IMG/VR virus record: IMGVR_UViG_3300028832_000024
Source of the DNA: a virus
DNA length: 45,708 nt
Direction: 5' to 3' (one strand)
Part shown: positions 1-45,708 of the stretch, piece after piece
How positions within the stretch are numbered: the stretch's first letter is position 1
How the letters are laid out: each line of letters starts with the position of its first letter
Notes under the pieces: model-generated
Told to the model about the DNA's origin: nothing
The model's database searches: none
The model's input: the letters and a program-made list of their open reading frames with translations, nothing else
Program-made: the position numbers and the translations under genes

Positions 1-127
1 CGGTAAGATCGCAACCCACGGAAATTTCCAAATTAAGCCCGTAATTCATCGTGTTAGTGTAACCGATCAACCCAATATCGAACATTTCGGGGTATTCGGC
101 GAAATCGGCGGGGGCGTGGATTCCGAA
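1..127. repeat. 127-nt direct terminal repeat, identical to 45582..45708 (closure overlap of a circular or terminally redundant genome)
   Basis: Bases 1..127 (cggtaagatcgcaacccacgg...gtggattccgaa) recur exactly at 45582..45708, at the extreme ends of the window. Confidence 0.95.
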
Positions 128-1027
128 CGGCGACACTTGCAAATACTTTGTCATTTGCCGCCACGAATCAATCGAACCGCCTAAACAGGTTTGGCACGGT
201 TCGACGGACCAATCTTTCGAAACGTTCAACGCCCGCATTCCCACGGGCAATTCGTTTTGGTTGTAGCAAAGGAACCACGCGCCGCCCGCGTCGTTTCCGT
301 CGCCGTCCGCGCCGGGTATATACGGCAAATAAATGGGTTCGGACGGGGTAAACCATTGGAACCCGCCGTGGGTATTGGTAAACGTCAGTTCAATTTCGCG
401 CATTGGCGCAACTTGCGAAGAATGGAACAGGTAAAGTTTTACCGTTCCCGTGGCCCCGATCATTTGCAAACCGATCCGTTCGATTTTCGTTGTTACGCCC
501 ATTGCGCGGACGGGGACGATTTCGAAACCAACGATCTTTCCCGTTGGATCAATGGTCGCGGCCATTCGTGCGGCCCCGTCAAAGAACGTGCGACGTTCCA
601 ACAAATTCCGCGTTTCCTGTTGCAGTTGCTTTTCCTGTATGAACGTTTGAACGGCCGTATTGATCCCGTTAACGGTCAAGTTCCGCACAAAGTCCGAAAC
701 CATATTGTACGCCGCCCAATCGGGGTTGTTTTCAGTCGGGGCCGATCCTGTATTCGGATTGACGGCAACCCATACTTTCCCGCCGTGCTTGACCTTTACG
801 CCGACCGCGTACGGAATAGTATTCTTCCAATCGGGGTATTTATACAAGTAATCGTCCGGCATAATTGCGCGGACGTTCGCCAACGTGCAAAGCGGGTGCG
901 CCCCTTGAAACGTTAACCCGCTTTCGGATTGCGTCAACGCGTCGTCAATTTGATTTTGGGGGTTGTAATCCTGTTGCCAACCAACGACAGGCAATAACGC
1001 CGTTTGAATATCTTGTAAACGTATCAT
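1..1027 (-). CDS. N-terminal 342 codons of a 438-aa virion-module protein that wraps the window junction (continues 45581..45292); carries a CBM5/12-like aromatic motif
   Basis: ATG at 1027..1025. I checked the minus frame codon by codon and found no stop down to base 1. It is in frame (through the 127-nt overlap) with track ORF 45292..45666. It is missing from the ORF track only because it runs off the edge. It lies directly downstream of the capsid gene. Confidence 0.75.
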   Translation of the reverse strand, partial: MIRLQDIQTALLPVVGWQQDYNPQNQIDDALTQSESGLTFQGAHPLCTLANVRAIMPDDYLYKYPDWKNTIPYAVGVKVKHGGKVWVAVNPNTGSAPTENNPDWAAYNMVSDFVRNLTVNGINTAVQTFIQEKQLQQETRNLLERRTFFDGAARMAATIDPTGKIVGFEIVPVRAMGVTTKIERIGLQMIGATGTVKLYLFHSSQVAPMREIELTFTNTHGGFQWFTPSEPIYLPYIPGADGDGNDAGGAWFLCYNQNELPVGMRALNVSKDWSVEPCQTCLGGSIDSWRQMTKYLQVSPFGIHAPADFAEYPEMFDIGLIGYTNTMNYGLNLEISVGCDLT

Positions 1028-1082
1028 AAAAAGTTCGATTTCTTTACAGGTTTTCCGAACGTGCAAAAGTTCTTTACAAATG

Positions 1083-1116
1083 AAAAACGGGGACGGGGTT
1101 TTTGTTCCCGTCCCCG
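1083..1116 (-). terminator. Intrinsic terminator after the major capsid gene
   Basis: Minus-strand RNA CGGGGACGGG-AACAAAAAC-CCCGTCCCCG (10-bp GC stem, 1088..1097 / 1107..1116) followed by TTTTT (1083..1087). It lies 27 nt after the capsid stop codon. Confidence 0.8.
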
Positions 1117-1142
1117 CGTGGTTTGGTTTCAGTCAGTCCCGA

Positions 1143-2261
1143 TTAGGTGGTAATTGCCTGTGTCGGGACGGGGTTATCTTCCGTATTCACGATTTCCACG
1201 GGCGCGGCGAACGGGTTCGCGGTTCCGGGCGCGGCCAATTCAACCTTAATGATCGGGTTGGCAACGGTTTCGGGCGCGGAATTGTAGGCAACGAGGAACG
1301 CCACGTCAACGGAAAAACCGAAATATTCCTTGACGTTGCAAACCATATCGGCGGAAGCGGCCCCGGCGATGCCGGATTGGTCGCCAACGGCGGTATAGTA
1401 GTGGGAACCCACGGGCAAGTCAATGAACGGAAGCCGCACCACGTCCCATTCGTGGAAATTCGCACGGGTACGGGCAAGGGCTTCGCGGTCAACGCGGGTA
1501 AGGACGCCCACATTACCGTCGGCGACAACGTAACCCGTGGCGAACACGCCCTGTTCGTTGGTAATGTTGTTGGTATAGTGGAACACTTTGTTATCGTATT
1601 CCAAACGCTTGTTGACGTCGTTATAGATATCGTGTTCGGCCAACTTGCGGACCAACGAATCGAAGCCCGCGCCGCCGATAACGTGCAACATTTCGGGGTA
1701 GGCATTCGCCCGCATCATCGCGTTAAGATCGGAAAGGAATTCCATTCGCGCGATCCACGGAATTTGCACGGAATTCGACGTTACGGTGTAATACAATTGA
1801 TCCTTGAACACTTGGGTTTTGTTCGCTTCCAAAGCGGCGATTGCCAAAACGTCCATTGCGGTTGCAAGGGCGCGGCAAACCTTTTCCATTTTGCGGGCGA
1901 AATCGTGTTCGTAGGAAATTTCGTTGTTGCGGTACAGTTGCGGGACCATTGTGAAACCAACGGCCAACGTTACCCAATTCACGGTGTAAAGGGCGGACGT
2001 ATTTTCGTCGTCGCCAATGACACAGGAACGGACGTTGGACACGGTAACGTCGCCGTCGTAGTTAATGACGGGAATTTGAACCGTGTTGCCGATAGATTCG
2101 AACGCGCGGTCGCGCAAGTTCGGGTTAATAATGGAATTCGCGGCGTTGGTTTGTTCGATGAAGAAATCCAACGCGCCGTATTCCAACGGGCGGGCCATAT
2201 TCCGGTCGAATTCCGGATTTTCCACGCGCCAATTTTGCAAACGGGTTGCGATAAGGGACAT
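1143..2261 (-). CDS. Major capsid protein (putative)
   Basis: 372-aa ORF directly downstream of a coiled-coil scaffold-like ORF and the portal, followed by a strong terminator. Size and synteny are typical of an HK97-fold capsid gene. No motif-level proof. Confidence 0.6.
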   Translation of the reverse strand: MSLIATRLQNWRVENPEFDRNMARPLEYGALDFFIEQTNAANSIINPNLRDRAFESIGNTVQIPVINYDGDVTVSNVRSCVIGDDENTSALYTVNWVTLAVGFTMVPQLYRNNEISYEHDFARKMEKVCRALATAMDVLAIAALEANKTQVFKDQLYYTVTSNSVQIPWIARMEFLSDLNAMMRANAYPEMLHVIGGAGFDSLVRKLAEHDIYNDVNKRLEYDNKVFHYTNNITNEQGVFATGYVVADGNVGVLTRVDREALARTRANFHEWDVVRLPFIDLPVGSHYYTAVGDQSGIAGAASADMVCNVKEYFGFSVDVAFLVAYNSAPETVANPIIKVELAAPGTANPFAAPVEIVNTEDNPVPTQAITT

Positions 2262-2321
2262 AATGAAAAATGTTTTTAATGGTTAATGTTTGCCGGATTG
2301 ACCCGTTACCCGGTGGGATTG

Positions 2322-3272
2322 TTAGCGAATCGGCAACGCCTTGATTGCATCGCGGTTTTCTTTCCACGCTTGCGCCATTGCGTCGTCAAATTCTTTTGTT
2401 CCGTTGACCTTTCCTTGCGCCATTAATTGCTTTGCAATAATTTCGTGCGCTTCGTCTTGCGTACGTGCGCCCGAAAGATCAACAGTTCCGCCCGAACCTT
2501 GAATTTCTTTTCCGCCTTGCGATCCCGCCCCCGTTTGTTTGCGTCCTGTTTCCAACACACCCATTGTTGTAAGTTCTTTGGCGACAAGTTCGGCCGCCGT
2601 AAACGGGCGCAAATTGTTTTCGGGGTTTCGACGGGGCGTTCCGTTGTCCATAAATGCAAGGACCTTTCCGCCGTTACCGTCGTCTATATATTCGGGGTTC
2701 ATCGCCTTTACTTTGGCGACGGCCTGTTCAGTAAGGACGGACACGACGGACGCGGGCAAATCGGCCTTGAATTTCAATCCGGCGGTTGCTTTCGCAAATT
2801 CGCCGTCAATCTTCATTCCGAACAGGGCCTTTTCGTGTTCGGATTGGGCGTTGTCGTATTTGGTTTTCAATTCCGCGTATTCCCGCGTAACGTTCCCCAA
2901 ATCGGCCTTTGCCTGTTCCAAAGCGCGTTTTGTTTCAGCGTCCGCGCCACCCTTTGCGATTACCGATTCCAAACGCGCCTTTTCTTTGGTCAGTTCGGAA
3001 ATTTGGCTTTGCAGTTCGGTTGCGTTTCCCGCTTGCGCCTTGATTTCGCCAATTACCCGTTTGGCGTAATCGTAGGTTTTTTCGGTCCCGTTCTTTGCGA
3101 TCCCCGACGCGGCCAAAATATCCGCGTCTAATCCGCCGTAAATTTCGCCTGTCTTTTGGCCAATAACGGCGGTTTCGTCGTTCTTGGACATTTCGACCAC
3201 GGCGTTAATTTGTTCGTCCGAAAGGCCCGCCGTTGCGGAATTGCCTTTCAAAAGTTCGGTTGTTAGTGCCAT
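2322..3272 (-). CDS. Scaffolding protein (putative)
   Basis: 316 aa, rich in Ala/Glu/Lys with long heptad-like stretches (ELQSQISELTKEKARLESV, KADLGNVTREYAELKTKYDNAQSEHEK), immediately upstream of the capsid gene. Confidence 0.5.
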   Translation of the reverse strand: MALTTELLKGNSATAGLSDEQINAVVEMSKNDETAVIGQKTGEIYGGLDADILAASGIAKNGTEKTYDYAKRVIGEIKAQAGNATELQSQISELTKEKARLESVIAKGGADAETKRALEQAKADLGNVTREYAELKTKYDNAQSEHEKALFGMKIDGEFAKATAGLKFKADLPASVVSVLTEQAVAKVKAMNPEYIDDGNGGKVLAFMDNGTPRRNPENNLRPFTAAELVAKELTTMGVLETGRKQTGAGSQGGKEIQGSGGTVDLSGARTQDEAHEIIAKQLMAQGKVNGTKEFDDAMAQAWKENRDAIKALPIR

Positions 3273-4077: not shown

Positions 4078-5820
4078 TTAAACATTGGCCACGTTCGGCG
4101 TTTGCTCTTGCGCATATTGCCGTAGTTGGTCAGTAATAATTTCGATCTTGCGTTGGTACGGTATTTCGATTCCAAAGTCCAAAATATTCGTGTTTTCGCG
4201 TTCAAATCTTCGCACAAAATTAGGAAAGTTTAACTTTATACGCAAATCTACGTCGGAAACAAGATTTTTTTCGTACAGTTCGGAAACCTCTTGCCGCGAC
4301 AAATGCCGATACGGTTCAAGTTCCGCAAGCAATCGCATTCGGCGCAATTGCGTTGGATCGTTTCGGTATTCCGTTTCTAAAATTTGGTTGGACATAACGT
4401 CCAATTCCGATTCGGAAACGCCCGCTTCCTTTGCGGTCCTGTACCGTTCCCGCAATTCGTCGGGGGAATACAGGTAAAATTCCGTTCCGTAATTGATTTG
4501 TGCCGATAAGAAATATTTTCCGTACCGCAAACGGCAAATCGTTTCGTCAACCCATTGTTGGGCGGCTTCGAAACCCTTTTTGACGCGGTTTAATACCGTT
4601 GTAACCGATTCGAAATTCGCGCGTACCTGTTGTTCGTTGAACGCGTCGCGGTTCGTTACGATTTCATCTTGACCAACAACGGCGGTAATGATTTCTTCCC
4701 GCAAGCGTTTTTGTTCTTCGACGTTATAATCCAACGATTCCCGATCAACTTTCAAGATTTGAACAGGGTTGCGCAAATCGGGTTGGTTTTCTTCCGCGTT
4801 CGGGACGGGAATTTCAACGAACGATCCCGCGCCGATAATCCGTTTGTTTCCGCATTTCGGGCAACGCAACAGTAATCCCGCCATATCCAAACGGTAATGG
4901 CCTTGCTTGTCGCGCAAGAATCCGCCGTCGCAATAATCGCCGTTTTCGGCGTTTGTGAAATCGCAACTTTGTTCATAACCCGAAAGAATGGGATACGCGC
5001 CCATTAGATCCAATTGCCGTTTTGAAATGTGGAAGAATTCGAACCAATCCAAACTTTCCAATTCGGCGGATAGCGGCGACGCCTTTACGTCGGGGTCCTC
5101 TAACGAAATCGGTTCGTTCCAAAAGAAACGGGCCGGGCAATAACCCAAATCGTGCGGGGCTTCGATTTTCGGCATACCGTTAATTTGTCCTGTATGCTTT
5201 TTGTCGTCCCAAACGCGGTAAGTTTCATCGTCCAACACTATAATTTCGTCCCGGCGGCGGAATACAATGTAATCCATTACGCCCGTCGTGTGGTCGGCCT
5301 TGTACGTAATAACGTCGTCAATGGGCAACCAATAGAAATACGGTTCGGGTAGATCGGTTGTTTGTTCCCTTGCTACGTCCACGATCAGCACGGAATTTAT
5401 TTCAGTCTTGAAGAATTCCCAACCTTTCGTGGACCATACGTTCGGTTCGTCCAACTTTTCCGCCCTGTACCGTTCCCAATCGTCCCGTTGTGCGGTATTG
5501 ACGAATTGATAATTAAACGCGGGGTTTCGGCCGTCAAAAATCCGGCTTAACTTGTCGAAGCAAATTTCGGTAATTTCGTTTGTCTTGACAGGATAGCGGA
5601 ATAGGGCCTTGAATAATACGAATTTGTCGTGTGGCAAGATATTTTCCGCCATTGCAAGAAATTGCGTTAGCGGAATGCTGATATACGGCGAATTGAACGT
5701 GGTAACGCGCTTAACCGTGTGAAACTTGATCCGCGATTGGTGCAGTTTTGCACGGTTAAGCACGTCGGCACGTCTATTTTCCGATATCCTTTTTCTTATT
5801 GCCGCGACGTCGTATCCCAT
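4078..5820 (-). CDS. Portal protein (putative)
   Basis: 580-aa ORF in the head module downstream of TerL and upstream of scaffold and capsid. Assigned by size and synteny only. Confidence 0.55.
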   Translation of the reverse strand: MGYDVAAIRKRISENRRADVLNRAKLHQSRIKFHTVKRVTTFNSPYISIPLTQFLAMAENILPHDKFVLFKALFRYPVKTNEITEICFDKLSRIFDGRNPAFNYQFVNTAQRDDWERYRAEKLDEPNVWSTKGWEFFKTEINSVLIVDVAREQTTDLPEPYFYWLPIDDVITYKADHTTGVMDYIVFRRRDEIIVLDDETYRVWDDKKHTGQINGMPKIEAPHDLGYCPARFFWNEPISLEDPDVKASPLSAELESLDWFEFFHISKRQLDLMGAYPILSGYEQSCDFTNAENGDYCDGGFLRDKQGHYRLDMAGLLLRCPKCGNKRIIGAGSFVEIPVPNAEENQPDLRNPVQILKVDRESLDYNVEEQKRLREEIITAVVGQDEIVTNRDAFNEQQVRANFESVTTVLNRVKKGFEAAQQWVDETICRLRYGKYFLSAQINYGTEFYLYSPDELRERYRTAKEAGVSESELDVMSNQILETEYRNDPTQLRRMRLLAELEPYRHLSRQEVSELYEKNLVSDVDLRIKLNFPNFVRRFERENTNILDFGIEIPYQRKIEIITDQLRQYAQEQTPNVANV

Positions 5821-5969: not shown

Positions 5970-6632
5970 TTAAGACGCGGGGACTAAATCGGTAAGCGGG
6001 TTAAAGTCGGTCGGCTTCACGATTGCAAGATCATCGGAATAGTTGTCGGGATATTGCCAACTAATCGCGTTGGAATCCTTTGCGTCGAAATTGCCGTGGA
6101 TCAGCGAACCGATAAACAGGGCGCGAATCGGGATCGGGTAATAGGTTGTAACGACAGGGTTGGTTCCTGTGGTTTCAGCCACACATTGAATGTTTCCGTT
6201 TTCGTCAAACAGGAACACGCCCAAATTGCCCGCGTTCGCTTCGCATTGCAATTCTTTCATAACCTTGATAACGGATTGCGGGATCGAACGCAATTGCCCG
6301 TCAAACTGAACGGGATTTCCGCCCAAAACCTCTGCAATACCGCCCAAATCATCGTTTCCGCCGGACGACATACGGGCGTCGCCGCCGGAATCAGCGGGGG
6401 CGTTGATATACGGGGATACAACGATTTTGCTACCGTCGGCGGCGGCAAGAAGCGCGGTCCACGACGCTTTCAGCAAGATAGACGCGGAATTGGTAAAACT
6501 GTTCCGCGTTCCGTCGGCCTTGCGCAAGCGTTGGAATGCAACTTTTTGAATTTGGCCGAAATTTTCCGAACAGGCAACGTTCGGAATGGTCGTCAGCGCG
6601 GACGCGGCCGGGCATTGGCAAACAAGCGACAT
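5970..6632 (-). CDS. Hypothetical structural protein (220 aa) with its own promoter-like box
   Basis: ATG ORF preceded by a 160-nt non-coding gap containing TACATTTG. Gly/Ser/Asn-rich and beta-type in composition. Function not recognisable; a tube or decoration role is possible but unsupported. Confidence 0.5.
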   Translation of the reverse strand: MSLVCQCPAASALTTIPNVACSENFGQIQKVAFQRLRKADGTRNSFTNSASILLKASWTALLAAADGSKIVVSPYINAPADSGGDARMSSGGNDDLGGIAEVLGGNPVQFDGQLRSIPQSVIKVMKELQCEANAGNLGVFLFDENGNIQCVAETTGTNPVVTTYYPIPIRALFIGSLIHGNFDAKDSNAISWQYPDNYSDDLAIVKPTDFNPLTDLVPAS

Positions 6633-6792: not shown

Positions 6793-9309
6793 TTAATGGA
6801 CCCGTACGCCCCGCGACATTGCGTTGTACGGTTTGGTATTCCCGTCGGCAAGTTCCTTTTCGTAAATTCCTGTCAGCCCGTCCGCGTCGTCGTCGTGTTC
6901 GTTCGCGTCGAACTTGCGCAAGAATCCCGTAACGTGCTTGTAAAACGCGGGGTAACGCGTTTCCCACCCGAACGGCATTATTATTTGCTGATTCACAAAC
7001 GGGGCGTTCGTTACGATACGCGATTCTTTGTTTTGGCCTTGATAGAACGGGACCGTTAACGCCCGAATTTTTTTCTTTACGTTTTTTTCGAATTGCGATC
7101 CGCCGTTGTTCGATTCGATCCAAACTTTTTGGACGCCGTTTCCGTTGATCAGTCGCGGAACGGTTACTGTCGTAACGTCCGTTGATTCGTCCGTAAATTC
7201 AATATCCGTTATTAGCGCAAACAACAACGGTTCGAACCGCTTGTTATGTTCGTTCCAAATTTGGTTTTCCGAACGGACTATATCGTACGACGCCGCGAAC
7301 AAAAAGTCGTCCCCTTGATCCGCGACGTCCACGTAACAACCCGAACGGATATATTGGCCGTAATCATCTTTGTTTACCCACGTCTTGAACGGTTGATACA
7401 ACAACGCGGTTGCATCGCCGGGGTTTCCTTGATACAAGCACTGAAAACCCACGGGGTCCAAATTTTTAGCGGCCAACAGGCGTTCCAAAGAATGACGCGC
7501 GGGCCACAACGGTTGGCCCGCTTCGCGCCCGTCTATTTCCGTGGGCGTCCCCGTCTTGATCGCTTCGAAATTTACCAATACCCACGCGCCCGCCGGTATG
7601 TTGTCGAAATCTTCCCACTTTTCGGCGACGATTACCTGTTCGGATTCAAGTATTTTGCCGATTATATCTTCGGGGTGCCAACGGGTAAATACAATCAGTT
7701 GTTGCGAATCGTTATGCAATCGTGTTTGTGCAACCTTTGTGTACCAATCCCACGCCGTCGCCCGAATTTGCGGGCTATTCGCTTCTAACGAATCCTTATA
7801 AAGATCGTCGAAAATCATAACGTCAACGGTTTTAGACGTCAGCGAACCGCCACGGCCCACAACGCGCAACGATCCTGTATGGTTTACGATTTCGAAAACG
7901 TCCGAATTCCGCAAATAGTTGTTTGCAACAGTTACGACGTTAGATCCATTCAAACAAGTTTCGGGGAATACGCCGTGGTATTTCTCGTTATCAATCAGTC
8001 TTTGAACGTCGCGGTTAAAGTCTTTGGCAATTGTAGCCGCGTACGAACAAATGCAAATGCGCAAATCGGGATAAAGCCCCAACATTTCGGCCGGTAGGAA
8101 TCTACTTGAACCTTGCGAATTATGCGTCGGTACAAGTTCATACCCCGCAAGATAAATCCCGCCGTCAACCTCAATACAATTTACGTTCGCTTCGCCGTAT
8201 TCCGTTACTGAATCAATGAAAAACCGCTTTTTATCGGGCCGATCCGAACACGTTTTATTTTCCAAACGCAATTGTTTTCGCGGAATATCGAAGATCCTGT
8301 CGGTGCGATCCGGATTAAACATAATACGTACTTTGTTCCCGCAATCTTTACCGTATAGGCGGGCAACGTATTTATGCCGTGTTGCTTTATAACCCAACGA
8401 TCGCAACAGTAAGTAAACGTCGTTTGCCAAAATGCCGTCCTTTTGACAAAATTCGCACGTCCCACGGGTATTTATATAACCGTCCGTGTCCATTAATCCG
8501 CGCAATAATTCGCGCCTACTTTCAGCGTCGGCCAATAAATATTCGGCGGGTATATGTTTATTGAACAAAACGCCAATTTCCCGCAATTTCCGTGTTTCAA
8601 GTCCTTTCAAATGAACACGAAAAGCGGTTTTGTCTTTTTTAATTTCTATCGCATATTGCCGTAAATGTTCTATATCTTCCGCGCCGCAAGAAATCCATTT
8701 ATCGAATTTGTTGCCGTCGCCCAACCATACGCCCAATAAATACGGATCAATAGGCAAAACCCGTTTCGGCATTTCGATAATTGCATCGGCGGGAATAAAA
8801 GGATTGCGCCGATTCCGTTTCGCAAAAATGTTTTGCGTTTCTACAATTTCACGAACACGGCCTTTGTGGTTATCGTGGTCAGCATATACGACCCATTCGT
8901 GTTGACGGGCGGCAATCAAACTGAACCCGTCGGCAAAATTCACGAATTGCGATTCACATTTATATACCCCGCTATTCCATTTTACGCGCCGTGGTTTCCC
9001 GTCCCCGCCGAAAACAAAATCGCCGGGCTTTAAATCCCCGTGTCGCTTCCAACCTGTTGTCGTAAGTACGGGCGTATCGTATCGCAATGCCTTGCCGTGT
9101 TGCGGCGGGGCCTGTATAATCAGTTTCCGTATTTGTTGCTTTGCGAACTTGTCTAATACCCTGTAATACGCTTTGTGAAACGGCGTTGGTTGGAAATTTG
9201 GGTCCATATATTGCGCGAACCATAAAAGATTCCGCCGCGCCCCCTCTTGCAAAAACAATTCGGGGTGCGTGGCCAATGTTCGCGTTATTTGCATCGTGTC
9301 AACGTCCAT
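6793..9309 (-). CDS. terL: Terminase large subunit interrupted by an intein (514-aa extein + 324-aa intein)
   Basis: Removing residues 74..397 restores the Walker A loop QAPPQHGK|S. Walker B-like VDVMIFDDLYKD follows, with a nuclease-sized C-terminal half. The gene sits upstream of the portal. Confidence 0.85.
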   Translation of the reverse strand: MDVDTMQITRTLATHPELFLQEGARRNLLWFAQYMDPNFQPTPFHKAYYRVLDKFAKQQIRKLIIQAPPQHGKALRYDTPVLTTTGWKRHGDLKPGDFVFGGDGKPRRVKWNSGVYKCESQFVNFADGFSLIAARQHEWVVYADHDNHKGRVREIVETQNIFAKRNRRNPFIPADAIIEMPKRVLPIDPYLLGVWLGDGNKFDKWISCGAEDIEHLRQYAIEIKKDKTAFRVHLKGLETRKLREIGVLFNKHIPAEYLLADAESRRELLRGLMDTDGYINTRGTCEFCQKDGILANDVYLLLRSLGYKATRHKYVARLYGKDCGNKVRIMFNPDRTDRIFDIPRKQLRLENKTCSDRPDKKRFFIDSVTEYGEANVNCIEVDGGIYLAGYELVPTHNSQGSSRFLPAEMLGLYPDLRICICSYAATIAKDFNRDVQRLIDNEKYHGVFPETCLNGSNVVTVANNYLRNSDVFEIVNHTGSLRVVGRGGSLTSKTVDVMIFDDLYKDSLEANSPQIRATAWDWYTKVAQTRLHNDSQQLIVFTRWHPEDIIGKILESEQVIVAEKWEDFDNIPAGAWVLVNFEAIKTGTPTEIDGREAGQPLWPARHSLERLLAAKNLDPVGFQCLYQGNPGDATALLYQPFKTWVNKDDYGQYIRSGCYVDVADQGDDFLFAASYDIVRSENQIWNEHNKRFEPLLFALITDIEFTDESTDVTTVTVPRLINGNGVQKVWIESNNGGSQFEKNVKKKIRALTVPFYQGQNKESRIVTNAPFVNQQIIMPFGWETRYPAFYKHVTGFLRKFDANEHDDDADGLTGIYEKELADGNTKPYNAMSRGVRVH
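8119..9090 (-). mobile_element. Intein (324 aa) with LAGLIDADG homing endonuclease, class 3-type signature
   Basis: Block A ALRYDTPVLTTTGWKRHGDL (Ala1 instead of Cys/Ser). Block B ARQHEW (His, then Trp two residues later). Two LAGLIDADG motifs: LLGVWLGDGN and LLRGLMDTDGY. Block F VNCIEVDG (Cys where class 1 inteins have Asp). Block G LVPTHN followed by Ser+1. Confidence 0.85.
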
Positions 9310-9379: not shown

Positions 9380-9655
9380 TTATACGCTTTTCGATTCGAA
9401 ATTATCCGCCCACTTAAAAATAACCTTGCATTTTGCAAAATCTTCGCGGCGCGTGTCATATATCCACAAACGGAAATAATGCGGTTCCGCGTCGGGAAAC
9501 TTTTTACAAAACAATTGGTAGGCGTTTTCGATCCTGTTTAGATCCCGAATCGTTTTCGCCCTTTCCTGTATAACTTGTTCGAACGCCTGTCCAAACGTCT
9601 TTTTTTCATCAATTAAAAGACGCTTAAACATATCGTCTATAAATTCGTGTTCCAT
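9380..9655 (-). CDS. Hypothetical protein (91 aa from ATG 9655)
   Basis: The track ORF 9380..9670 starts at TTG. The first ATG (MEHEFIDD...) overlaps the upstream stop codon as TAATG. Confidence 0.5.
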   Translation of the reverse strand: MEHEFIDDMFKRLLIDEKKTFGQAFEQVIQERAKTIRDLNRIENAYQLFCKKFPDAEPHYFRLWIYDTRREDFAKCKVIFKWADNFESKSV

Positions 9656-9792
9656 TATGTATTCGCCCAATATTTCGGTTTATCCCATATTTTCCAATAA
9701 TGCGCGTACCCGATTTCGTGGCGTTTGTACGCCAAATCCAATTCGCGCCCCGCCTTTGATCGTTTACGGCGTGTTGTGTATCGCATCGGCAT
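9655..9792 (-). CDS. Hypothetical small basic protein (45 aa)
   Basis: ATG at 9792, 2 nt after the terS stop. Its own stop overlaps the next ATG (TAATG), which suggests translational coupling. Confidence 0.4.
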   Translation of the reverse strand: MPMRYTTRRKRSKAGRELDLAYKRHEIGYAHYWKIWDKPKYWANT

Positions 9793-9793
9793 A

Positions 9794-10345
9794 CTATTTC
9801 GTATTGATTGCGTTAATAACCTGTTCCAACAATTCGTCGGGAACATTCGTCAAAGAAACGTTCGATTTGGTTTCCGTTTCGATCTTTCCGCTTATTTCCT
9901 GTATATGGCGGTTCGACCATTGATCGGGCGCACGGTTGCACAACGCAAAGATAATTGCCGTTGCATTCGGCGCGGCCTTTTTGTGGACAACCTTTGTTTT
10001 ATTGACAACCAATTTACCGTTTTTGTCCAACGCCGATTCGGTTGTCGTTTCGTCCCATTCGTAACCCTGTACCAATTCTAACAGGGAACGTTTGCAGTCA
10101 ACGACCAATTGGGAATCGTACCAATCTTGGTATTGTCTTTCGGCATTTTTGACCGCTTCATAAAATTCACTATCTTCGTTTAGATGCCTGTAAAATGTTT
10201 GGTGCGAAACCCGCGCCGCCGTGTACGCGTCTTTGTACGATTTACCCGTGGCGATCGCCTTAACCATAATTTCCACTTTGGCGTCCGTCCATTGCGGTTT
10301 GCGCCCGCGTTTCGTCTTTGGTTCGGTTTTCTCTTTGTTTGCCAT
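9794..10345 (-). CDS. terS: Terminase small subunit (putative)
   Basis: N-terminal HTH-like segment GKSYKDAYTAARVSHQTFYRHL and the terminase-small-like motif AIIFALCNRAPDQW. First gene of the packaging block. Start taken at ATG 10345 (MANKEK...). Confidence 0.55.
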   Translation of the reverse strand: MANKEKTEPKTKRGRKPQWTDAKVEIMVKAIATGKSYKDAYTAARVSHQTFYRHLNEDSEFYEAVKNAERQYQDWYDSQLVVDCKRSLLELVQGYEWDETTTESALDKNGKLVVNKTKVVHKKAAPNATAIIFALCNRAPDQWSNRHIQEISGKIETETKSNVSLTNVPDELLEQVINAINTK

Positions 10346-10360
10346 AATACACGGTTTTTG

Positions 10361-10368
10361 CAAAAATA
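10361..10368 (-). promoter_or_regulatory. Candidate -7 box TATTTTTG upstream of terS
   Basis: Minus-strand TATTTTTG lies 15 nt upstream of the terS ATG, in a 50-nt gap. The -33 element is poor. Confidence 0.3.
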
Positions 10369-17188: not shown

Positions 17189-17272
17189 TTTGGGTTGGGT
17201 TTCCTTATCAACTATTCCATTGCGGGCGGTTGTAGTCATTAAATCCCCTTTTGCTGATTTCGGAAACCCTTG

Positions 17273-17354
17273 TACCCCCGCCCGGACTTGAACCGGGACC
17301 CCTGTACGGGACGACATTTTGAGTGTCGCGCGGCTACCTTTTCGCCACGGGGGT
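17273..17354 (-). tRNA. tRNA-Leu(CAA): tRNA-Leu (anticodon CAA), type II with long variable arm
   Basis: Folded by hand. 7-bp acceptor stem ACCCCCG/CGGGGGT, D stem GCG/CGC with a GG loop, anticodon stem CGACA/TGTCG with loop CTCAAAA, 14-nt variable arm, T stem CCCGG/CCGGG with loop TTCAAGT. 82 nt; no encoded CCA. Confidence 0.85.
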
Positions 17355-17360
17355 ATTTTG

Positions 17361-17431
17361 TTGTTGCGTCCGGATTTGAACCGAAACTGTTGGAACCAAA
17401 ATCCAAAGTGCTACCGTTACACCACGCAACA
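17361..17431 (-). tRNA. tRNA-Gln(TTG): tRNA-Gln (anticodon TTG)
   Basis: 7-bp acceptor stem TGTTGCG/CGCAACA, D loop AACGGTA, anticodon stem TTGGA/TCCAA with loop TTTTGGT, T stem TTCGG/CCGGA with loop TTCAAAT. 71 nt. Confidence 0.8.
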
Positions 17432-17612: not shown

Positions 17613-17628
17613 TTCTCTTTGTCTTTAC

Positions 17629-17702
17629 CGGGAACCGGCCCGGTCCGTGGGTTACAACCTTAACCCGACACAAAGGTAAGGATAATTTTTATATTTCCAA
17701 AA
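17629..17702 (-). promoter_or_regulatory. Promoter P-D with conserved two-hairpin leader
   Basis: Minus strand: TTTTGG (17697..17702), 19-nt spacer, TACCTTTG (17671..17678), then hairpins GGGTTAAGGTTGTAACCC and CGGACCGGGCCGGTTCCCG. Confidence 0.65.
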
Positions 17703-17707
17703 GATTT

Positions 17708-17908
17708 TCACATTTTTTTGCAAAAAAGTTGCGTCCGGTCCACAATCCCCGGTTTCCAAACGACGGCCCCGGCCATCAATGCCCGTTCAAAGGCCGTGTC
17801 GGTTTCCCTGTGTTGGCCCAATTCAAACCAATGTTTGTATTTGGACCGCTTGACCATAACACGGCAAATCCCGTTCGGGTCCCGGGCAATATACGCGTTC
17901 ACTTTCAT
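17708..17908 (-). CDS. Hypothetical small protein (66 aa from ATG 17908)
   Basis: MKVNAYIARDPNG...; the ATG overlaps the upstream TGA as ATGA. Confidence 0.45.
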   Translation of the reverse strand: MKVNAYIARDPNGICRVMVKRSKYKHWFELGQHRETDTAFERALMAGAVVWKPGIVDRTQLFCKKM

Positions 17909-26638: not shown

Positions 26639-26651
26639 TGCGTTTTTTGTT

Positions 26652-26727
26652 CCGAAAACCCGTTCGGTCGGTCGGGTTAGTTCCTTAACCCACTACAAAG
26701 GTACGACAATTTTTCTAATTTCCAAAA
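26652..26727 (-). promoter_or_regulatory. Promoter P-C with two-hairpin leader
   Basis: Minus strand TTTTGG (26722..26727), 19-nt spacer, TACCTTTG (26696..26703), then GGGTTAAGGAACTAACCC (26674..26691) and CCGAACGGGTTTTCGG (26652..26667). Confidence 0.6.
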
Positions 26728-26833
26728 GTTTTTCCTATATTTTTCGAAAAAAGTTGCATTTTTTTTGATTTTCCCGAAATAATACGCCCCGATCGGGGTA
26801 TATTTGTATTGAACAACCCAAAAAATAATCGTT

Positions 26834-28782: not shown

Positions 28783-28801
28783 AACTGTTTGTTTTTTGTA
28801 T

Positions 28802-28876
28802 CGGGAATCGGCCCGATCCGTTGGGTTAGTTCCTTAACCCGCTACAAAGGTAGGTATTTATTTTTAATTACCAAAA
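28802..28876 (-). promoter_or_regulatory. Promoter P-A with two-hairpin leader
   Basis: Minus strand TTTTGG (28871..28876), 19-nt spacer, TACCTTTG (28845..28852), then GGGTTAAGGAACTAACCC (28823..28840) and CGGATCGGGCCGATTCCCG (28802..28820). Confidence 0.65.
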
Positions 28877-29035
28877 CTTTTTCCATAATTTTTGCAAAAA
28901 AAGTTCGAAAAAAGTTATTTTCGGCGATTTTTCGATTTGTGGCCATATTTCGTGGCGGACGGTAAGTTGTACCATTTTCGGGGGAAAGTGTCTTAAATCC
29001 AAAATAAACGCCCTTTGCGGGGACGATATGAACAA

Positions 29036-45291: not shown

Positions 45292-45708
45292 CTAAACGGT
45301 ACGGTATTTTACGCCGTGGTTGTTGCATTGCAAACAAATACGATCCAATCCCCGCGTATCAATTGACAACGCCTTATACGCCTGTTTCAGTTCGTACCCC
45401 AAACCCGTTGCGCGGCCCGTCGGGTTTCCGTCCAATTCGTATAACAGTTCGTCGCGGGTAACGTTCACTTGATTACGGTTTACCCGAACGTCGGGGTTCA
45501 TCGCAATAGTGCGCAAGACGTTTGCCACAACCTGTTTTTGAATGACGGTCGCAAAGATTTGTCGTTGCGAAATAATAAAGTCGGTAAGATCGCAACCCAC
45601 GGAAATTTCCAAATTAAGCCCGTAATTCATCGTGTTAGTGTAACCGATCAACCCAATATCGAACATTTCGGGGTATTCGGCGAAATCGGCGGGGGCGTGG
45701 ATTCCGAA
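45292..45708 (-). CDS. C-terminal part of the 438-aa junction-spanning structural protein (unique part 45292..45581)
   Basis: Same reading frame as minus-strand 1..1027 through the terminal overlap. The Met at 45666 used by the track is internal. Confidence 0.75.
   Translation of the reverse strand, partial: FGIHAPADFAEYPEMFDIGLIGYTNTMNYGLNLEISVGCDLTDFIISQRQIFATVIQKQVVANVLRTIAMNPDVRVNRNQVNVTRDELLYELDGNPTGRATGLGYELKQAYKALSIDTRGLDRICLQCNNHGVKYRTV
45582..45708. repeat. Second copy of the 127-nt terminal repeat
   Basis: Identical to 1..127. Confidence 0.95.

What the first reader, a model, noticed from the sequence alone, without database searches (positions are those of the whole stretch)
8119..9090. 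Class 3-type intein with LAGLIDADG endonuclease splits the TerL Walker A loop
The 838-aa terminase ORF contains a 324-aa insert placed exactly between Lys73 and Ser398. Removing it recreates the P-loop PPQHGK|S.

The insert has intein blocks A (ALRYDTPVLTTTGWKRHGDL), B (ARQHEW), F (VNCIEVDGGIYLAG) and G (LVPTHN|S). It also has two LAGLIDADG motifs (LLGVWLGDGN, LLRGLMDTDGY).

It starts with Ala rather than Cys/Ser. It also carries the Trp (two residues after the block B His; TerL W139, 8893..8895), Cys (block F position 4; C378, 8176..8178) and Thr (before the terminal HN; T395) triad. That triad defines the rare class 3 splicing mechanism, known mainly from mycobacteriophage and Deinococcus inteins.

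A class 3 intein in the terminase of a presumed Bacteroidota phage would be an unusual host range. It would also make packaging depend on protein splicing.
Basis: partly seen in the sequence, partly recalled or inferred. Interest (0 to 1): 0.8.

Follow-up and report, generated by a model that had tools for sequence, protein, structure and literature searches.

The report
Class 3 intein in phage terminase
The DNA-packaging motor gene of this gut Bacteroidota-type phage is interrupted, exactly inside its ATP-binding loop, by a self-splicing mobile protein element (a class 3 intein with its own homing endonuclease); the call is correct, but this kind of element at this kind of site is already known and turns out to be very common in phage sequence data.

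Summary
The 838-aa TerL ORF (6793..9309, minus strand) carries a 324-aa in-frame insert (8119..9090) between Lys73 and Ser398 of the Walker A loop.

A near-isogenic phage contig lacks exactly these 972 nt. Its TerL is 99% identical in protein and its flanks are about 96% identical in DNA. About a hundred 509-541-aa homologues read PPQHGK|SQGSS without interruption.

The insert is an intein:
- Its closest solved relatives by sequence are the class 3 DnaB P-loop inteins 6bs8 and 6rix (E 1e-12).
- The AlphaFold2 model (pLDDT 96) matches PI-SceI and those mini-inteins.
- Ala1, His B10, Trp B12, Cys F4, Thr G5, His-Asn and Ser+1 are invariant or nearly so across relatives.
- All four LAGLIDADG blocks are intact.
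- pN is far below pS in both the splicing and the endonuclease parts.

The class 3 reading is therefore supported in silico. Splicing itself is untested.

The rarity and host-range claim is not supported. Related class 3 inteins sit at the same TerL site in Bacteroides phage B124-14 and in Porphyromonas phages. Class 3 TerL inteins and a Lys|Thr P-loop TerL insertion site are published for actinobacteriophages. 17,317 protein clusters match this intein.

Verdict: a new member of a known kind, of modest interest.

The parts
6793..9309 (-). TerL precursor ORF (838 aa plus stop): N-extein, intein and C-extein in one reading frame
   Evidence: One search lists the ORF. After in-silico splicing it matches PHROG 38 terminase large subunit at E 1.2e-77. 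It also matches Pfam Terminase_6N at 32.2 bits against a cut-off of 22. NCBIfam TIGR01630 matches the C-terminal nuclease part at E 4.5e-13.
9091..9309 (-). N-extein, TerL residues 1-73, ending in the Walker A residues QAPPQHGK (9091..9114)
   Evidence: Searches give the coordinates. The region is collinear with intein-less TerL of Alistipes phage AS73P1 and Parabacteroides phage PDS1 and with L013.
8119..9090 (-). Intein, 324 aa (972 nt), TerL residues 74-397
   Evidence: Exactly this segment is absent from near-isogenic L013 and from L004 and L007 in a codon alignment. PDB class 3 inteins match at E 1.2e-12. AlphaFold2 gives pLDDT 96.1. Foldseek matches PI-SceI at TM 0.75-0.77 and 6bs8 at TMt 0.80.
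9031..9090 (-). Splicing block A (ALRYDTPVLTTTGWKRHGDL). Intein residue 1 is Ala (9088..9090), so there is no N-terminal nucleophile.
   Evidence: This block aligns to ALALDTPLPTPSGWTTMGDV of Msm DnaBi1. Residue 1 is Ala in 116 of 121 relatives and Leu in 4.
8893..8916 (-). Splicing block B (IAARQHEW): His B10 is H137 (8899..8901) and Trp B12 is W139 (8893..8895). The usual B7 Thr is replaced by Ala.
   Evidence: H and W align to H65 and W67 of 6bs8 and 6rix. Both are present in 120 of 121 relatives and are invariant in the diverse alignment A1.
8236..8790 (-). LAGLIDADG homing endonuclease domain, about intein residues 101-285. Block C is LLGVWLGDGN (8710..8739, catalytic Asp125). Block D is NKHIPAEYL (8536..8562, Lys178). 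Block E is LLRGLMDTDGY (8476..8508, catalytic Asp203). Block H is LLRSLGYKAT (8380..8409).
   Evidence: Pfam LAGLIDADG_3 matches at E 2.5e-7. The catalytic Asp residues are conserved in 118 and 120 of 121 relatives. K178, I180, P181, D201, D203 and G204 are invariant in A1. For this part pN is 0.106 against pS 0.666. Domain limits come from the AlphaFold2 secondary structure and are approximate.
8143..8184 (-). Splicing block F (VNCIEVDGGIYLAG). Cys F4 is C378, intein C305 (8176..8178), the predicted first nucleophile.
   Evidence: This block aligns to VRCVEVDnpeHLYLAG of Msm DnaBi1, with Cys on Cys. Cys is present in 121 of 121 relatives.
8119..8136 (-). Splicing block G (LVPTHN): Thr G5 is T395 (8125..8127), His G6 is H396 and the terminal Asn is N397 (8119..8121).
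   Evidence: This block aligns to VPTHN of 6bs8 and 6rix. T, H and N are each present in 121 of 121 relatives.
8116..8118 (-). +1 residue Ser398. It is both the Walker A Ser and the predicted second nucleophile in splicing.
   Evidence: Ser is present in 122 of 122 sequences. The same dual role of the P-loop Ser is described for Msm DnaBi1 (PMC6195587).
6793..8118 (-). C-extein, TerL residues 398-838 plus stop: the rest of the ATPase and the nuclease domain
   Evidence: Searches give the family matches. It is 68% identical in DNA to TerL of cultured Bacteroides, Parabacteroides and Alistipes phages.
9794..10363 (-). Terminase small subunit gene upstream of TerL (context only)
   Evidence: PHROG 309 matches at E 1.2e-18.

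Best explanation
Window 8119..9090 encodes a mobile class 3 intein with an embedded LAGLIDADG homing endonuclease. It is inserted in frame between the Walker A Lys73 and Ser398 of the phage large terminase.

Inferred protein-level mechanism, following the published class 3 pathway. All four steps are inferred.
1. The TerL precursor folds, and the block F Cys (C378) attacks the Lys73-Ala74 peptide bond. His137, Trp139 and Thr395 assist. This forms a thioester branched intermediate.
2. The N-extein is passed to the side chain of Ser398.
3. Asn397 cyclises and releases the intein.
4. An O-to-N shift yields a 514-aa TerL with an intact PPQHGKS P-loop.

Only spliced TerL should bind and hydrolyse ATP, so packaging depends on splicing (also inferred).

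Inferred DNA-level mechanism. During co-infection the endonuclease cuts intein-less terL alleles at the GGC AAR|TCN CAA region. Repair then copies the intein, with flanking extein sequence, into the cut allele. The patchy distribution and the divergent flanks support this, but cleavage has not been shown.
For: Empty site:
- L013 is 99% identical in TerL protein and about 96% identical in flanking DNA. It lacks exactly the 972 nt.
- Intein-less alleles L004 and L007 show the same precise boundary in a codon alignment.
- 100 homologues of 503-541 aa at 79-91% extein identity read PPQHGKSQGSS.
- The cultured phages AS73P1 and PDS1 are also intein-less.

Intein identity:
- phmmer finds the class 3 P-loop inteins Msm DnaBi1 (6bs8, E 1.2e-12) and Mch DnaBi1 (6rix, 6riy). 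H/W, C and T-H-N align residue for residue.
- The AlphaFold2 model has pLDDT 96.1 and pTM 0.92.
- Foldseek matches PI-SceI at E 1.6e-19 with TM 0.75-0.77, and 6bs8 and 6rix at TMt 0.75-0.81.

Class 3 signature:
- Ala1, H B10, W B12, C F4, T G5, H, N and S+1 are present in 116-121 of 121 TerL relatives.
- H, W, C, T, H and N are invariant in a 62-sequence alignment that reaches down to 30% identity.
- The definition of the class is taken from PMC2807308 and PMC7664689.

Selection: against P0003, pN/pS is 0.106/0.659 for the intein and 0.089/0.655 for the C-extein.

Endonuclease: LAGLIDADG_3 matches above the gathering score. Blocks C, D, E and H and both catalytic Asp residues are conserved.

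Mobility:
- At least 16 gain or loss events occur on an extein NJ tree of 187 tips.
- 56 of 74 extein mismatches to L013 lie in the first 600 nt around the junction, and nearly all are synonymous.

Extein function: in-silico splicing raises Terminase_6N from 18.8 bits (below the cut-off) to 32.2 bits.
Against: - No experiment has been done. Splicing, the block F thioester intermediate and endonuclease cleavage are all inferred.
- No Pfam or NCBIfam splicing-domain HMM reaches significance.
- dS is saturated (about 1.6), so dN/dS values are rough.
- The cluster of mismatches near the junction could reflect heterogeneous recombination rather than co-conversion. There is a second mismatch patch at nt 1112-1253.
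- Grafting W, C and T onto a class 1 intein did not give efficient splicing (PMC7664689). The triplet alone is therefore not sufficient proof of activity.
Confidence: 0.85

Rival explanations
1. The insert is a real intein that splices by a non-class-3 route. One option is class 2-like direct attack of Ser398 on the N-terminal junction. In that case Cys378 would have only a structural or coordinating role.
For: Ala1 inteins of class 2 (KlbA) also lack an N-terminal nucleophile (PMC2807308). Block F position 4 is important in every intein class.
Against: Class 2 inteins lack the WCT triplet and use Cys+1. Here W, C and T are invariant and +1 is Ser. The nearest solved relatives are class 3 inteins characterised experimentally. 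The block B Thr7 used by classes 1 and 2 is replaced by Ala.
Confidence: 0.05
2. The insert is a decayed, non-splicing intein remnant or a fixed extra domain. TerL would then either work unspliced or be a dead gene.
For: Pfam and NCBIfam splicing-domain models do not detect it. An inactive class 3-like pseudo-intein is documented (Arth_1007, PMC3196547).
Against: - Arth_1007 lacks the block F Cys and the block B His, and both are present here.
- The insert separates the Walker A Lys from its Ser by 324 residues.
- The genome is complete, with a 127-nt terminal repeat.
- The allele recurs in many samples under strong purifying selection.
- Homologues without the insert are otherwise collinear. 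The insert is therefore dispensable, not a functional TerL domain.
Confidence: 0.04
3. The intein splices but is no longer mobile. The endonuclease would be inactive or retained for structure, and the patchy distribution would come from precise loss and ordinary recombination between phages rather than homing.
For: Cleavage has not been tested. Empty-site alleles with apparently matching target sequence coexist with intein-bearing ones, for example L014 with CAACACGGCAAA|TCGCAAGGTTCAAGC. Only 3 of 19 classifiable loci held carry the intein.
Against: - Both catalytic Asp residues, the block D Lys and the block H motif are conserved.
- The endonuclease part has pN 0.106 against pS 0.666, as constrained as the extein.
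- There are at least 16 state changes among 187 close TerL sequences.
- Synonymous divergence is raised around the insertion site in a near-isogenic pair, as expected for co-conversion.
Confidence: 0.15

Closest known systems
Mycobacterium smegmatis DnaBi1 and M. chimaera DnaBi1 class 3 mini-inteins (PDB 6bs8, 6rix, 6riy; PMC6195587, PMC7664689)
   Same: They are the best solved relatives by sequence (E 1e-12 to 1e-10). They start AL..DTP and end VPTHN, with Ser+1. The WCT triplet plus His B10 aligns residue for residue. They are also inserted in a P-loop, where the +1 Ser doubles as the Walker A Ser. The fold matches at TMt 0.75-0.81.
   Different: Their host protein is the bacterial replicative helicase, not a phage terminase. 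They are mini-inteins that have lost the endonuclease. The Msm redox-trap partner Cys48 has no conserved counterpart here: Cys45 is present in only 32 of 121 relatives.
Actinobacteriophage TerL inteins (Kelley et al. 2016, PMC5050341; bioRxiv 10.1101/2025.01.02.630785), for example Mycobacterium phage Baka gp6
   Same: These are LAGLIDADG-bearing inteins in the ATPase domain of TerL. The published TerL1-a site lies between the invariant P-loop Lys and the nucleophilic Thr. Class 3 inteins are reported in TerL: TerL1-c and TerL1-e, and 287 class 3 inteins in 4 exteins including TerL. Baka and related cluster J TerL inteins are 36% identical over the full length and carry H.W, RCIQV and PTHN|S.
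   Different: The hosts are Actinobacteria. The TerL family is different (terminase_1 against a Terminase_6N-like protein here). The Baka junction reads SRQNGKG|D or GK|GD, so the register or the first residue differs. The papers read here do not state which splicing class the P-loop sites TerL1-a and TerL1-b have.
Unannotated TerL inteins of Bacteroides phage B124-14 (HE608841), BF702P1, BF766P4 and Porphyromonas phages 005a and 005b
   Same: They share the TerL family and the insertion site: PPQTGK|...|SEGSSRKLP and PPQHGK|...|SEGSTRRLP. They carry HEW, NCIQVEGG and PTHN. Their size is about 324-328 aa and they include LAGLIDADG motifs. Their hosts are Bacteroidota.
   Different: They are only about 35-36% identical and form a separate lineage. 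That lineage also occurs in close TerL relatives of the window (P0087, P0091, P0099, P0119). Residue 1 is Glu, Gln or Leu instead of Ala. In the library searched, no paper mentions an intein together with B124-14.
Mycobacteriophage Bethlehem DnaB intein (prototype class 3; PMC2807308)
   Same: It defines the mechanism assumed here: a non-nucleophilic residue 1, essential Cys F4, His B10 and Trp B12, Thr G5, and Ser or Thr at +1. It also contains a LAGLIDADG endonuclease.
   Different: It sits in a DnaB-like helicase, starts with Pro and has Thr at +1. Biochemistry exists for it and none exists for the window's intein.
PI-SceI (yeast VMA1 intein; PDB 1vde, 1ef0, 1lws)
   Same: It is the best overall structural match. 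It has a two-domain architecture of HINT splicing domain plus LAGLIDADG endonuclease (E 1.6e-19, TMq 0.75-0.77).
   Different: It is a class 1 intein with Cys1 and Cys+1. It is eukaryotic, carries an extra DNA-recognition region, and is only 15-17% identical.

Membership tests
Intein (HINT-fold protein-splicing element) | In-frame insertion in a conserved host protein, with homologues that lack it and are otherwise collinear | tested here: met
   L013 has 99% identical TerL and lacks exactly 8119..9090. 100 intein-less homologues exist. AS73P1 and PDS1 also lack it.
Intein (HINT-fold protein-splicing element) | HINT splicing fold formed by the N- and C-terminal parts of the insert | tested here: met
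   The AlphaFold2 model has pLDDT 96.1. Foldseek matches PI-SceI, the TliVMA intein, PI-PfuI, 6bs8, 6rix, gp41-1, Prp8 inteins and hedgehog. Pfam Hint models do not reach significance; the best is E 0.15.
Intein (HINT-fold protein-splicing element) | C-terminal His-Asn followed by a Ser, Thr or Cys nucleophile at +1 | tested here: met
   The sequence reads H396-N397|S398. This is invariant in 121 of 121 relatives.
Intein (HINT-fold protein-splicing element) | Autocatalytic excision with ligation of the exteins | not testable with these tools
   This needs expression with SDS-PAGE or mass spectrometry. The indirect support is a complete, recurrent phage genome with strong purifying selection.
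Class 3 intein | No Cys, Ser or Thr nucleophile at intein position 1 | tested here: met
   Ala74 is residue 1. It is Ala in 116 and Leu in 4 of 121 relatives. Across 142 related domains from 147 cluster representatives, 96 start with Ala and only 1 with Cys.
Class 3 intein | Trp at block B position 12, two residues after the block B His | tested here: met
   The motif is H137-E-W139. It aligns to H65 and W67 of 6bs8 and 6rix. It is present in 120 of 121 relatives and is invariant in A1.
Class 3 intein | Cys at block F position 4 | tested here: met
   C378 aligns to the catalytic Cys of Msm and Mch DnaBi1. It is present in 121 of 121 relatives.
Class 3 intein | Thr at block G position 5 | tested here: met
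   T395 precedes H-N. It is present in 121 of 121 relatives and is invariant in A1.
Class 3 intein | Thiol-labile block F branched intermediate, with splicing abolished by mutation of the block F Cys | not testable with these tools
   This is a biochemical criterion (PMC2807308).
LAGLIDADG homing endonuclease (two-motif, intein-embedded) | Two LAGLIDADG motifs, each with a catalytic acidic residue, plus endonuclease blocks D and H | tested here: met
   - Block C is LLGVWLGDGN with Asp125.
- Block E is LLRGLMDTDGY with Asp203.
- Block D is NKHIP with Lys178.
- Block H is LLRSLGYKAT.
- Pfam LAGLIDADG_3 scores 31.3 bits against a cut-off of 22.5.
- These residues are conserved across relatives.
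LAGLIDADG homing endonuclease (two-motif, intein-embedded) | Site-specific cleavage of the intein-less allele | not testable with these tools
   The support is indirect: patchy distribution and raised synonymous divergence around the site in a near-isogenic pair.
Phage terminase large subunit (Terminase_6N-like ATPase plus RNase H-like nuclease) | Contiguous Walker A motif and a family HMM match | tested here: met
   This is met only after in-silico splicing. Terminase_6N then scores 32.2 bits against a cut-off of 22. On the precursor it scores 18.8 bits. PHROG 38 matches at E 1.2e-77. TIGR01630 is above its cut-off on the nuclease part.

The most novel reading that the evidence does not exclude
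TerL maturation in this anaerobe-infecting phage group might be a conditional checkpoint. The first splicing step depends on a free thiol (Cys378). Oxidation, or another modification of that Cys, could therefore hold TerL as an inactive precursor and delay packaging. This has been shown for the related class 3 P-loop intein Msm DnaBi1 under oxidative stress.

A second possibility concerns the two class 3 intein lineages, about 35% identical, that occupy the same GK|S site. One starts with Ala and the other with Leu, Glu or Gln. They might compete for the site, and synonymous variants of the empty site (AAA|AGT against AAG|TCG) might act as homing-immune alleles.
Probability: 0.12. Interest if true: 0.6.

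Novelty: new member of a known kind. Interest (0 to 1): 0.3.

Why it matters
For annotation, the TerL of this phage group should be recorded as precursor plus intein. Current records call it a hypothetical protein or a plain terminase of about 830 aa. That inflates TerL length and disturbs TerL-based phylogenies of gut phages.

For intein biology, the result adds a well-populated gut Bacteroidota-phage clade to the class 3 inteins. It agrees with the proposed phage origin of the class. It also provides a natural near-isogenic pair of intein-bearing and intein-less phages, the window and IMGVR_UViG_3300028914_000015. That pair could be used to measure homing, co-conversion and the fitness cost of a splicing-dependent packaging motor.

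For protein engineering, it offers another compact Ala1/Ser+1 class 3 scaffold. None of this changes what is known about how such elements work.

Tried and rejected
- Splicing-domain HMMs. Pfam and NCBIfam scans of the precursor and the insert found only LAGLIDADG_3, plus faint matches to intein-bearing IF-2 and RNR models. A hand-made mini-intein with the endonuclease removed gave only Hint_2 at E 0.15. I treat this as a limit of the models, because PDB sequence search and fold search are decisive.
- The search for homologous proteins with the intein alone returned only proteins of 566 aa or less (93 hits). It evidently missed the 838-aa relatives, so I used it only for diversity and not for counting. 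The exhaustive representative search was used for family size.
- Redox-trap idea. The window's Cys45 lies near the position of Msm Cys48, the disulfide partner of the catalytic Cys. It is Cys in only 32 of 121 relatives and Trp in 78. I could not measure distances in the model, so this is not claimed.
- Homing-immunity idea. The +1 Ser codon is AGY in 6 of 16 empty sites (4 distinct sequences) and TCN in all 3 intein-bearing loci. The sample is too small, and several empty sites carry TCG, so this remains a lead only.
- Extein NJ tree and Fitch count. 31 sequences were dropped because gapped copies from alignment A1 overwrote their ids in my script. My regular expression also recognised only 1 of the 4 Leu-start inteins. 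The count of at least 16 changes is therefore a rough lower-quality estimate on 187 tips.
- Tori and Perler 2011 (PMC3133030), the paper that widened the class 3 definition, is not held. I relied on papers that cite it.
- A group I intron or a free-standing homing endonuclease gene was rejected. The reading frame is continuous through both junctions, and Rfam finds only two tRNAs in the window.


Full report
**1. The observation**

The window carries an 838-codon ORF on the minus strand, 6793..9309.
- The insert is TerL residues 74-397, window 8119..9090, 324 aa.
- Lys73 is at 9091..9093 and Ser398 at 8116..8118.
- Both LAGLIDADG motifs are at 8710..8739 and 8476..8508.

Removing the insert gives QAPPQHGK|SQGSSRFLP.

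**2. It is an insertion, not a domain of this terminase**

Three lines of evidence show this.
- Cultured relatives. Alistipes phage AS73P1 (512 aa) and Parabacteroides phage PDS1 read QQPPQHGKSEGSSRKLP without interruption.
- Metagenomic relatives. A search with the in-silico spliced protein found about a hundred homologues of 503-541 aa at 79-91% identity. They are interleaved in rank with 827-838-aa intein-bearing ones, and most read QAPPQHGKSQGSSRFL or a close variant of it.
- A near-isogenic pair. IMG/VR contig IMGVR_UViG_3300028914_000015 (L013, 45,266 bp) encodes a TerL 99% identical to the spliced protein. Its flanking DNA is about 96% identical to the window. The BLAST segments stop at window 9092 and resume at 8115 while staying contiguous in L013, so exactly the 972 nt are absent.

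Codon alignment with two further empty alleles (L004, L007) and one filled allele (L006) shows the same boundary, AAR|TCN.

**3. What the insert is**

Profile libraries are weak here.
- Pfam finds only LAGLIDADG_3 (E 2.5e-7, above the gathering score).
- NCBIfam gives only faint matches to intein-bearing IF-2 and RNR models.
- A mini-intein made by deleting the endonuclease gives Hint_2 at E 0.15.

Sequence search against solved structures is clear.
- The best hits are the class 3 P-loop inteins of the mycobacterial replicative helicase: Msm DnaBi1 (6bs8, E 1.2e-12) and Mch DnaBi1 (6rix and 6riy, E 3e-11 and 1e-10).
- ALRYDTPVLTTTGW aligns to ALALDTPLPTPSGW.
- AARQHEW aligns to ADAQHQW.
- VNCIEVDG..GIYLAGYELVPTHN aligns to VRCVEVDNPEHLYLAGPGMVPTHN.

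An AlphaFold2 model built on a 62-sequence alignment is very confident, with mean pLDDT 96.1 and pTM 0.92. Foldseek against the PDB returns:
- PI-SceI first (E 1.6e-19, TMq 0.75-0.77);
- then the TliVMA, PhoVMA and PI-PfuI inteins;
- then the class 3 mini-inteins (TMt 0.75-0.81);
- then gp41-1, Prp8 inteins and hedgehog.

The insert therefore has a HINT splicing domain, split into residues about 1-100 and 286-324, with a LAGLIDADG endonuclease domain in between.

**4. Class assignment**

The class 3 definition comes from Tori et al. (PMC2807308), Beyer et al. (PMC7664689) and Kelley et al. (PMC5050341). It has four features:
- no nucleophile at position 1;
- Trp at B12;
- Cys at F4;
- Thr at G5.

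His B10 is essential, and +1 is usually Ser or Thr. All of these are present here.

Conservation is strong.
- Among 121 intein-bearing TerL relatives (57-98% intein identity, plus a 34-35% lineage), H, W, C, T, H, N and S+1 are present in 120-121 of 121. Residue 1 is Ala in 116 and Leu in 4.
- In the wider 62-sequence alignment, which reaches 30% identity and includes inteins in other host proteins, H64, W66, C305, T322, H323 and N324 are invariant columns.
- The block B Thr7 used by class 1 and 2 inteins is Ala here. Class 3 inteins generally lack this Thr.

The biochemical hallmark, a thiol-labile block F branched intermediate, cannot be tested with these tools.

**5. Evidence that it is functional and mobile**

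- Selection. Against the 86%-identical relative P0003, pN/pS is 0.106/0.659 over the intein. It is 0.121/0.657 for the N-terminal splicing part, 0.106/0.666 for the endonuclease and 0.066/0.627 for the C-terminal splicing part. The C-extein gives 0.089/0.655. dS is saturated, so the ratios of about 0.05-0.09 are rough, but constraint on every part is plain.
- Endonuclease residues. Blocks C, D, E and H, both catalytic Asp residues and the block D Lys are conserved.
- Patchy distribution. The nearest extein neighbours of the window are one intein-bearing allele followed by a run of intein-less ones. A rough NJ and Fitch count gives at least 16 state changes among 187 tips (with the caveats listed under what was tried).
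- Divergence near the site. In the near-isogenic pair, 74 of 1545 extein positions differ and only 3 codons change the amino acid. 56 of the 74 lie in the first 600 nt, which bracket the junction at nt 219/220. There are none in several 75-nt bins further downstream. The site itself reads AAG|TCG in the window against AAA|AGT in L013. This is what co-conversion during homing from a diverged donor would leave. A second patch at nt 1112-1253 shows that ordinary mosaicism cannot be excluded.

**6. Mechanism proposed**

- Shown: the anatomy, the conservation and the empty site.
- Inferred from the published class 3 pathway: Cys378 attacks the Lys73-Ala74 bond with help from His137, Trp139 and Thr395. 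The N-extein moves to Ser398. Asn397 cyclises. An O-to-N shift restores PPQHGKS.
- Supporting the consequence: in-silico splicing lifts the Terminase_6N score from 18.8 bits (below the cut-off) to 32.2 bits, with the match running through the P-loop.
- Inferred: the Walker A Lys and Ser are 324 residues apart in the precursor, so ATPase activity and hence packaging should need splicing. PMC6195587 reports that the P-loop intein of P. horikoshii RadA disrupts ATPase function and assumes the same for Msm DnaBi1.

**7. Context**

- The window is a complete phage genome. Positions 1-127 equal 45582-45708, giving a 45,581-bp unit.
- Genes lie almost entirely on the minus strand.
- Upstream of terL is the small terminase (9794..10363).
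- Downstream of terL are a gene matching a PHROG family named major head protein (5970..6632), the portal (4078..5820) and virion structural proteins.
- The nearest cultured phages infect Bacteroides, Parabacteroides and Alistipes, and a match of similar strength is to an Elizabethkingia phage. All are about 68% identical in DNA over the C-extein.
- The intergenic repeats carry a TAccTTTG motif of the Bacteroidota promoter type. That reading is from my own knowledge.

A Bacteroidota host is therefore reasonable.

**8. Comparison with what is known**

*Published work on phage TerL inteins*
- TerL is the most frequently intein-invaded protein in mycobacteriophages.
- The published TerL1-a site lies between the invariant P-loop Lys and the nucleophilic Thr, described as a classic P-loop insertion.
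- Class 3 inteins are reported in TerL (PMC5050341).
- A 2025 survey counts 287 class 3 inteins in actinobacteriophages, almost all in TerL and Cas4.

*Hits in the phage collection*

tblastn of the window's intein against 50,697 phage records hits 835 records, 532 of them over at least 80% of the length. The full-length hits listed are at about 35-36% identity. They include:
- cluster J mycobacteriophage TerL;
- Gordonia phage TerL;
- Acidovorax phage ACF1 TerL;
- a Brevibacterium phage DnaB-like helicase;
- Bacteroides phages B124-14, BF702P1 and BF766P4;
- Porphyromonas gingivalis phages 005a and 005b.

By record count, Salmonella, Vibrio, Klebsiella and other phages also appear in the hit list.

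*Same-site inteins in Bacteroidota phages*

B124-14 reads PPQTGK|ELSDSTLVPTPTGF...HEW...NCIQVEGG...VPTHN|SEGSSRKLP. The Porphyromonas phage reads PPQHGK|QISDNQ...HEW...NCIQVEGG...IPTHN|SEGSTRRLP. These sit at the same site in the same TerL family and carry the same signature, in a lineage about 35% identical to the window's intein. That lineage also occurs in TerL proteins 81-86% identical to the window's (P0087, P0091, P0099, P0119).

*Size of the family*

An exhaustive search of 1.84 billion cluster representatives finds 17,317 matches at E 1e-3 or better and 2,446 at E 1e-30 or better. Among 142 full-length domains in the best 147 representatives:
- 96 start with Ala and only one with Cys;
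- 141 have H.W;
- nearly all end in THN followed by Ser, Thr or Cys;
- 70 follow GK, many in PPxxGK terminase loops.

*Literature gap*

The literature library holds no paper that mentions a class 3 intein together with Bacteroid-, or an intein together with B124-14. A review notes a TerL intein in crAss-like Delta phages. The Bacteroidota-phage clade therefore seems undescribed in print, but it is neither rare nor mechanistically new.

**9. Verdict**

The rarity and host-range argument is not supported. This is a new member of a known kind, a class 3 LAGLIDADG intein at the P-loop Lys|Ser site of a phage terminase. Interest is modest. Its main value is correct annotation and a ready-made natural pair of intein-bearing and intein-less phages for homing and fitness experiments.

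Noticed in passing
window 1-127 and 45582-45708: The two ends carry a 100% identical 127-nt direct repeat. The window is therefore a complete phage genome of 45,581 bp, either a terminal repeat or a circular-assembly overlap.
   Followed up: partly
window 17617-17727, 26642-26752, 28791-28901: There are three intergenic copies of a repeat of about 111 nt, with 81% mean column identity. Read on the gene (minus) strand, each has a TAccTTTG motif of the Bacteroidota -7 promoter type. A conserved G+C-rich hairpin follows (CCGGGAACCGGCCCGG... and GGGTTA..TAACCC). This is probably a repeated promoter with its leader.
   Followed up: partly
window 17272-17354 and 17360-17431 (minus strand): Two adjacent tRNA genes, tRNA-Leu(CAA) and tRNA-Gln(TTG), are the only Rfam matches in the window.
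   Followed up: no
window about 9412-9794 (ORF 9380..9670, minus strand, 96 aa): A segment of about 383 nt between the small and large terminase genes carries a 96-aa ORF with no PHROG match. It is absent from the otherwise 96%-identical contig L013. Relatives have different small ORFs (56 or 85 aa) in this slot, so it is a variable accessory-gene position.
   Followed up: partly
relatives P0015, P0046 and P0173; corresponding window site 6868..6906 (ANEHDDDADGLTG): Some close TerL relatives carry a second, unrelated intein of about 320 aa in the nuclease domain. It is class 1-like (HDDG|CF...VSN|CDGLTG), matches Pfam Hint_2 and has no LAGLIDADG hit. P0015 and P0046 carry both inteins (1158 and 1159 aa). 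The window's site is empty.
   Followed up: partly
relatives P0087, P0091, P0099 and P0119; L003 (Bacteroides phage B124-14) 1800-4301; L010 (Porphyromonas phage 005b) 1282-3729: A second class 3 intein lineage occupies the identical GK|S site in the same TerL family. It is only 34-36% identical to the window's. Its position 1 is Leu, Glu or Gln, so residue 1 varies freely, as expected when it is not a nucleophile. The GenBank records do not annotate an intein.
   Followed up: partly
L011 (Acidovorax phage ACF1 TerL) 208-3012: This related TerL P-loop intein has Cys at position 1 and also a block F Cys and Thr G5: GK|CLDVNTP...RCIKV...VPTHN|T. The block B Trp was not checked. It may be an intermediate or a revertant between class 1 and class 3.
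   Followed up: no
proteins P0229, P0231, P0233, P0236, P0238, P0241 and P0257: The same intein family is inserted in dCTP deaminase at ...ARIEGK|ALALDTP...PTHN|SSLGRLGL. It is also inserted in PD-(D/E)XK/Cas4-like proteins at ...DWKG|L...PTHN|TGK. This shows extein switching between sites that end in GK or KG.
   Followed up: no
L007 252-650: A close relative of the window's phage carries a free-standing NUMOD4 plus HNH_3 homing endonuclease gene next to its SSB gene. I did not check whether the window has a counterpart.
   Followed up: no
window 8116-8118 compared with loci L004-L026: The +1 Ser codon is TCN in all 3 intein-bearing loci held. It is AGT or AGC in 6 of 16 empty sites (4 distinct sequences). 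In near-isogenic L013, four consecutive bases differ right at the insertion point (AAG|TCG against AAA|AGT). This may be a homing-resistant target variant, but the sample is too small to say.
   Followed up: partly
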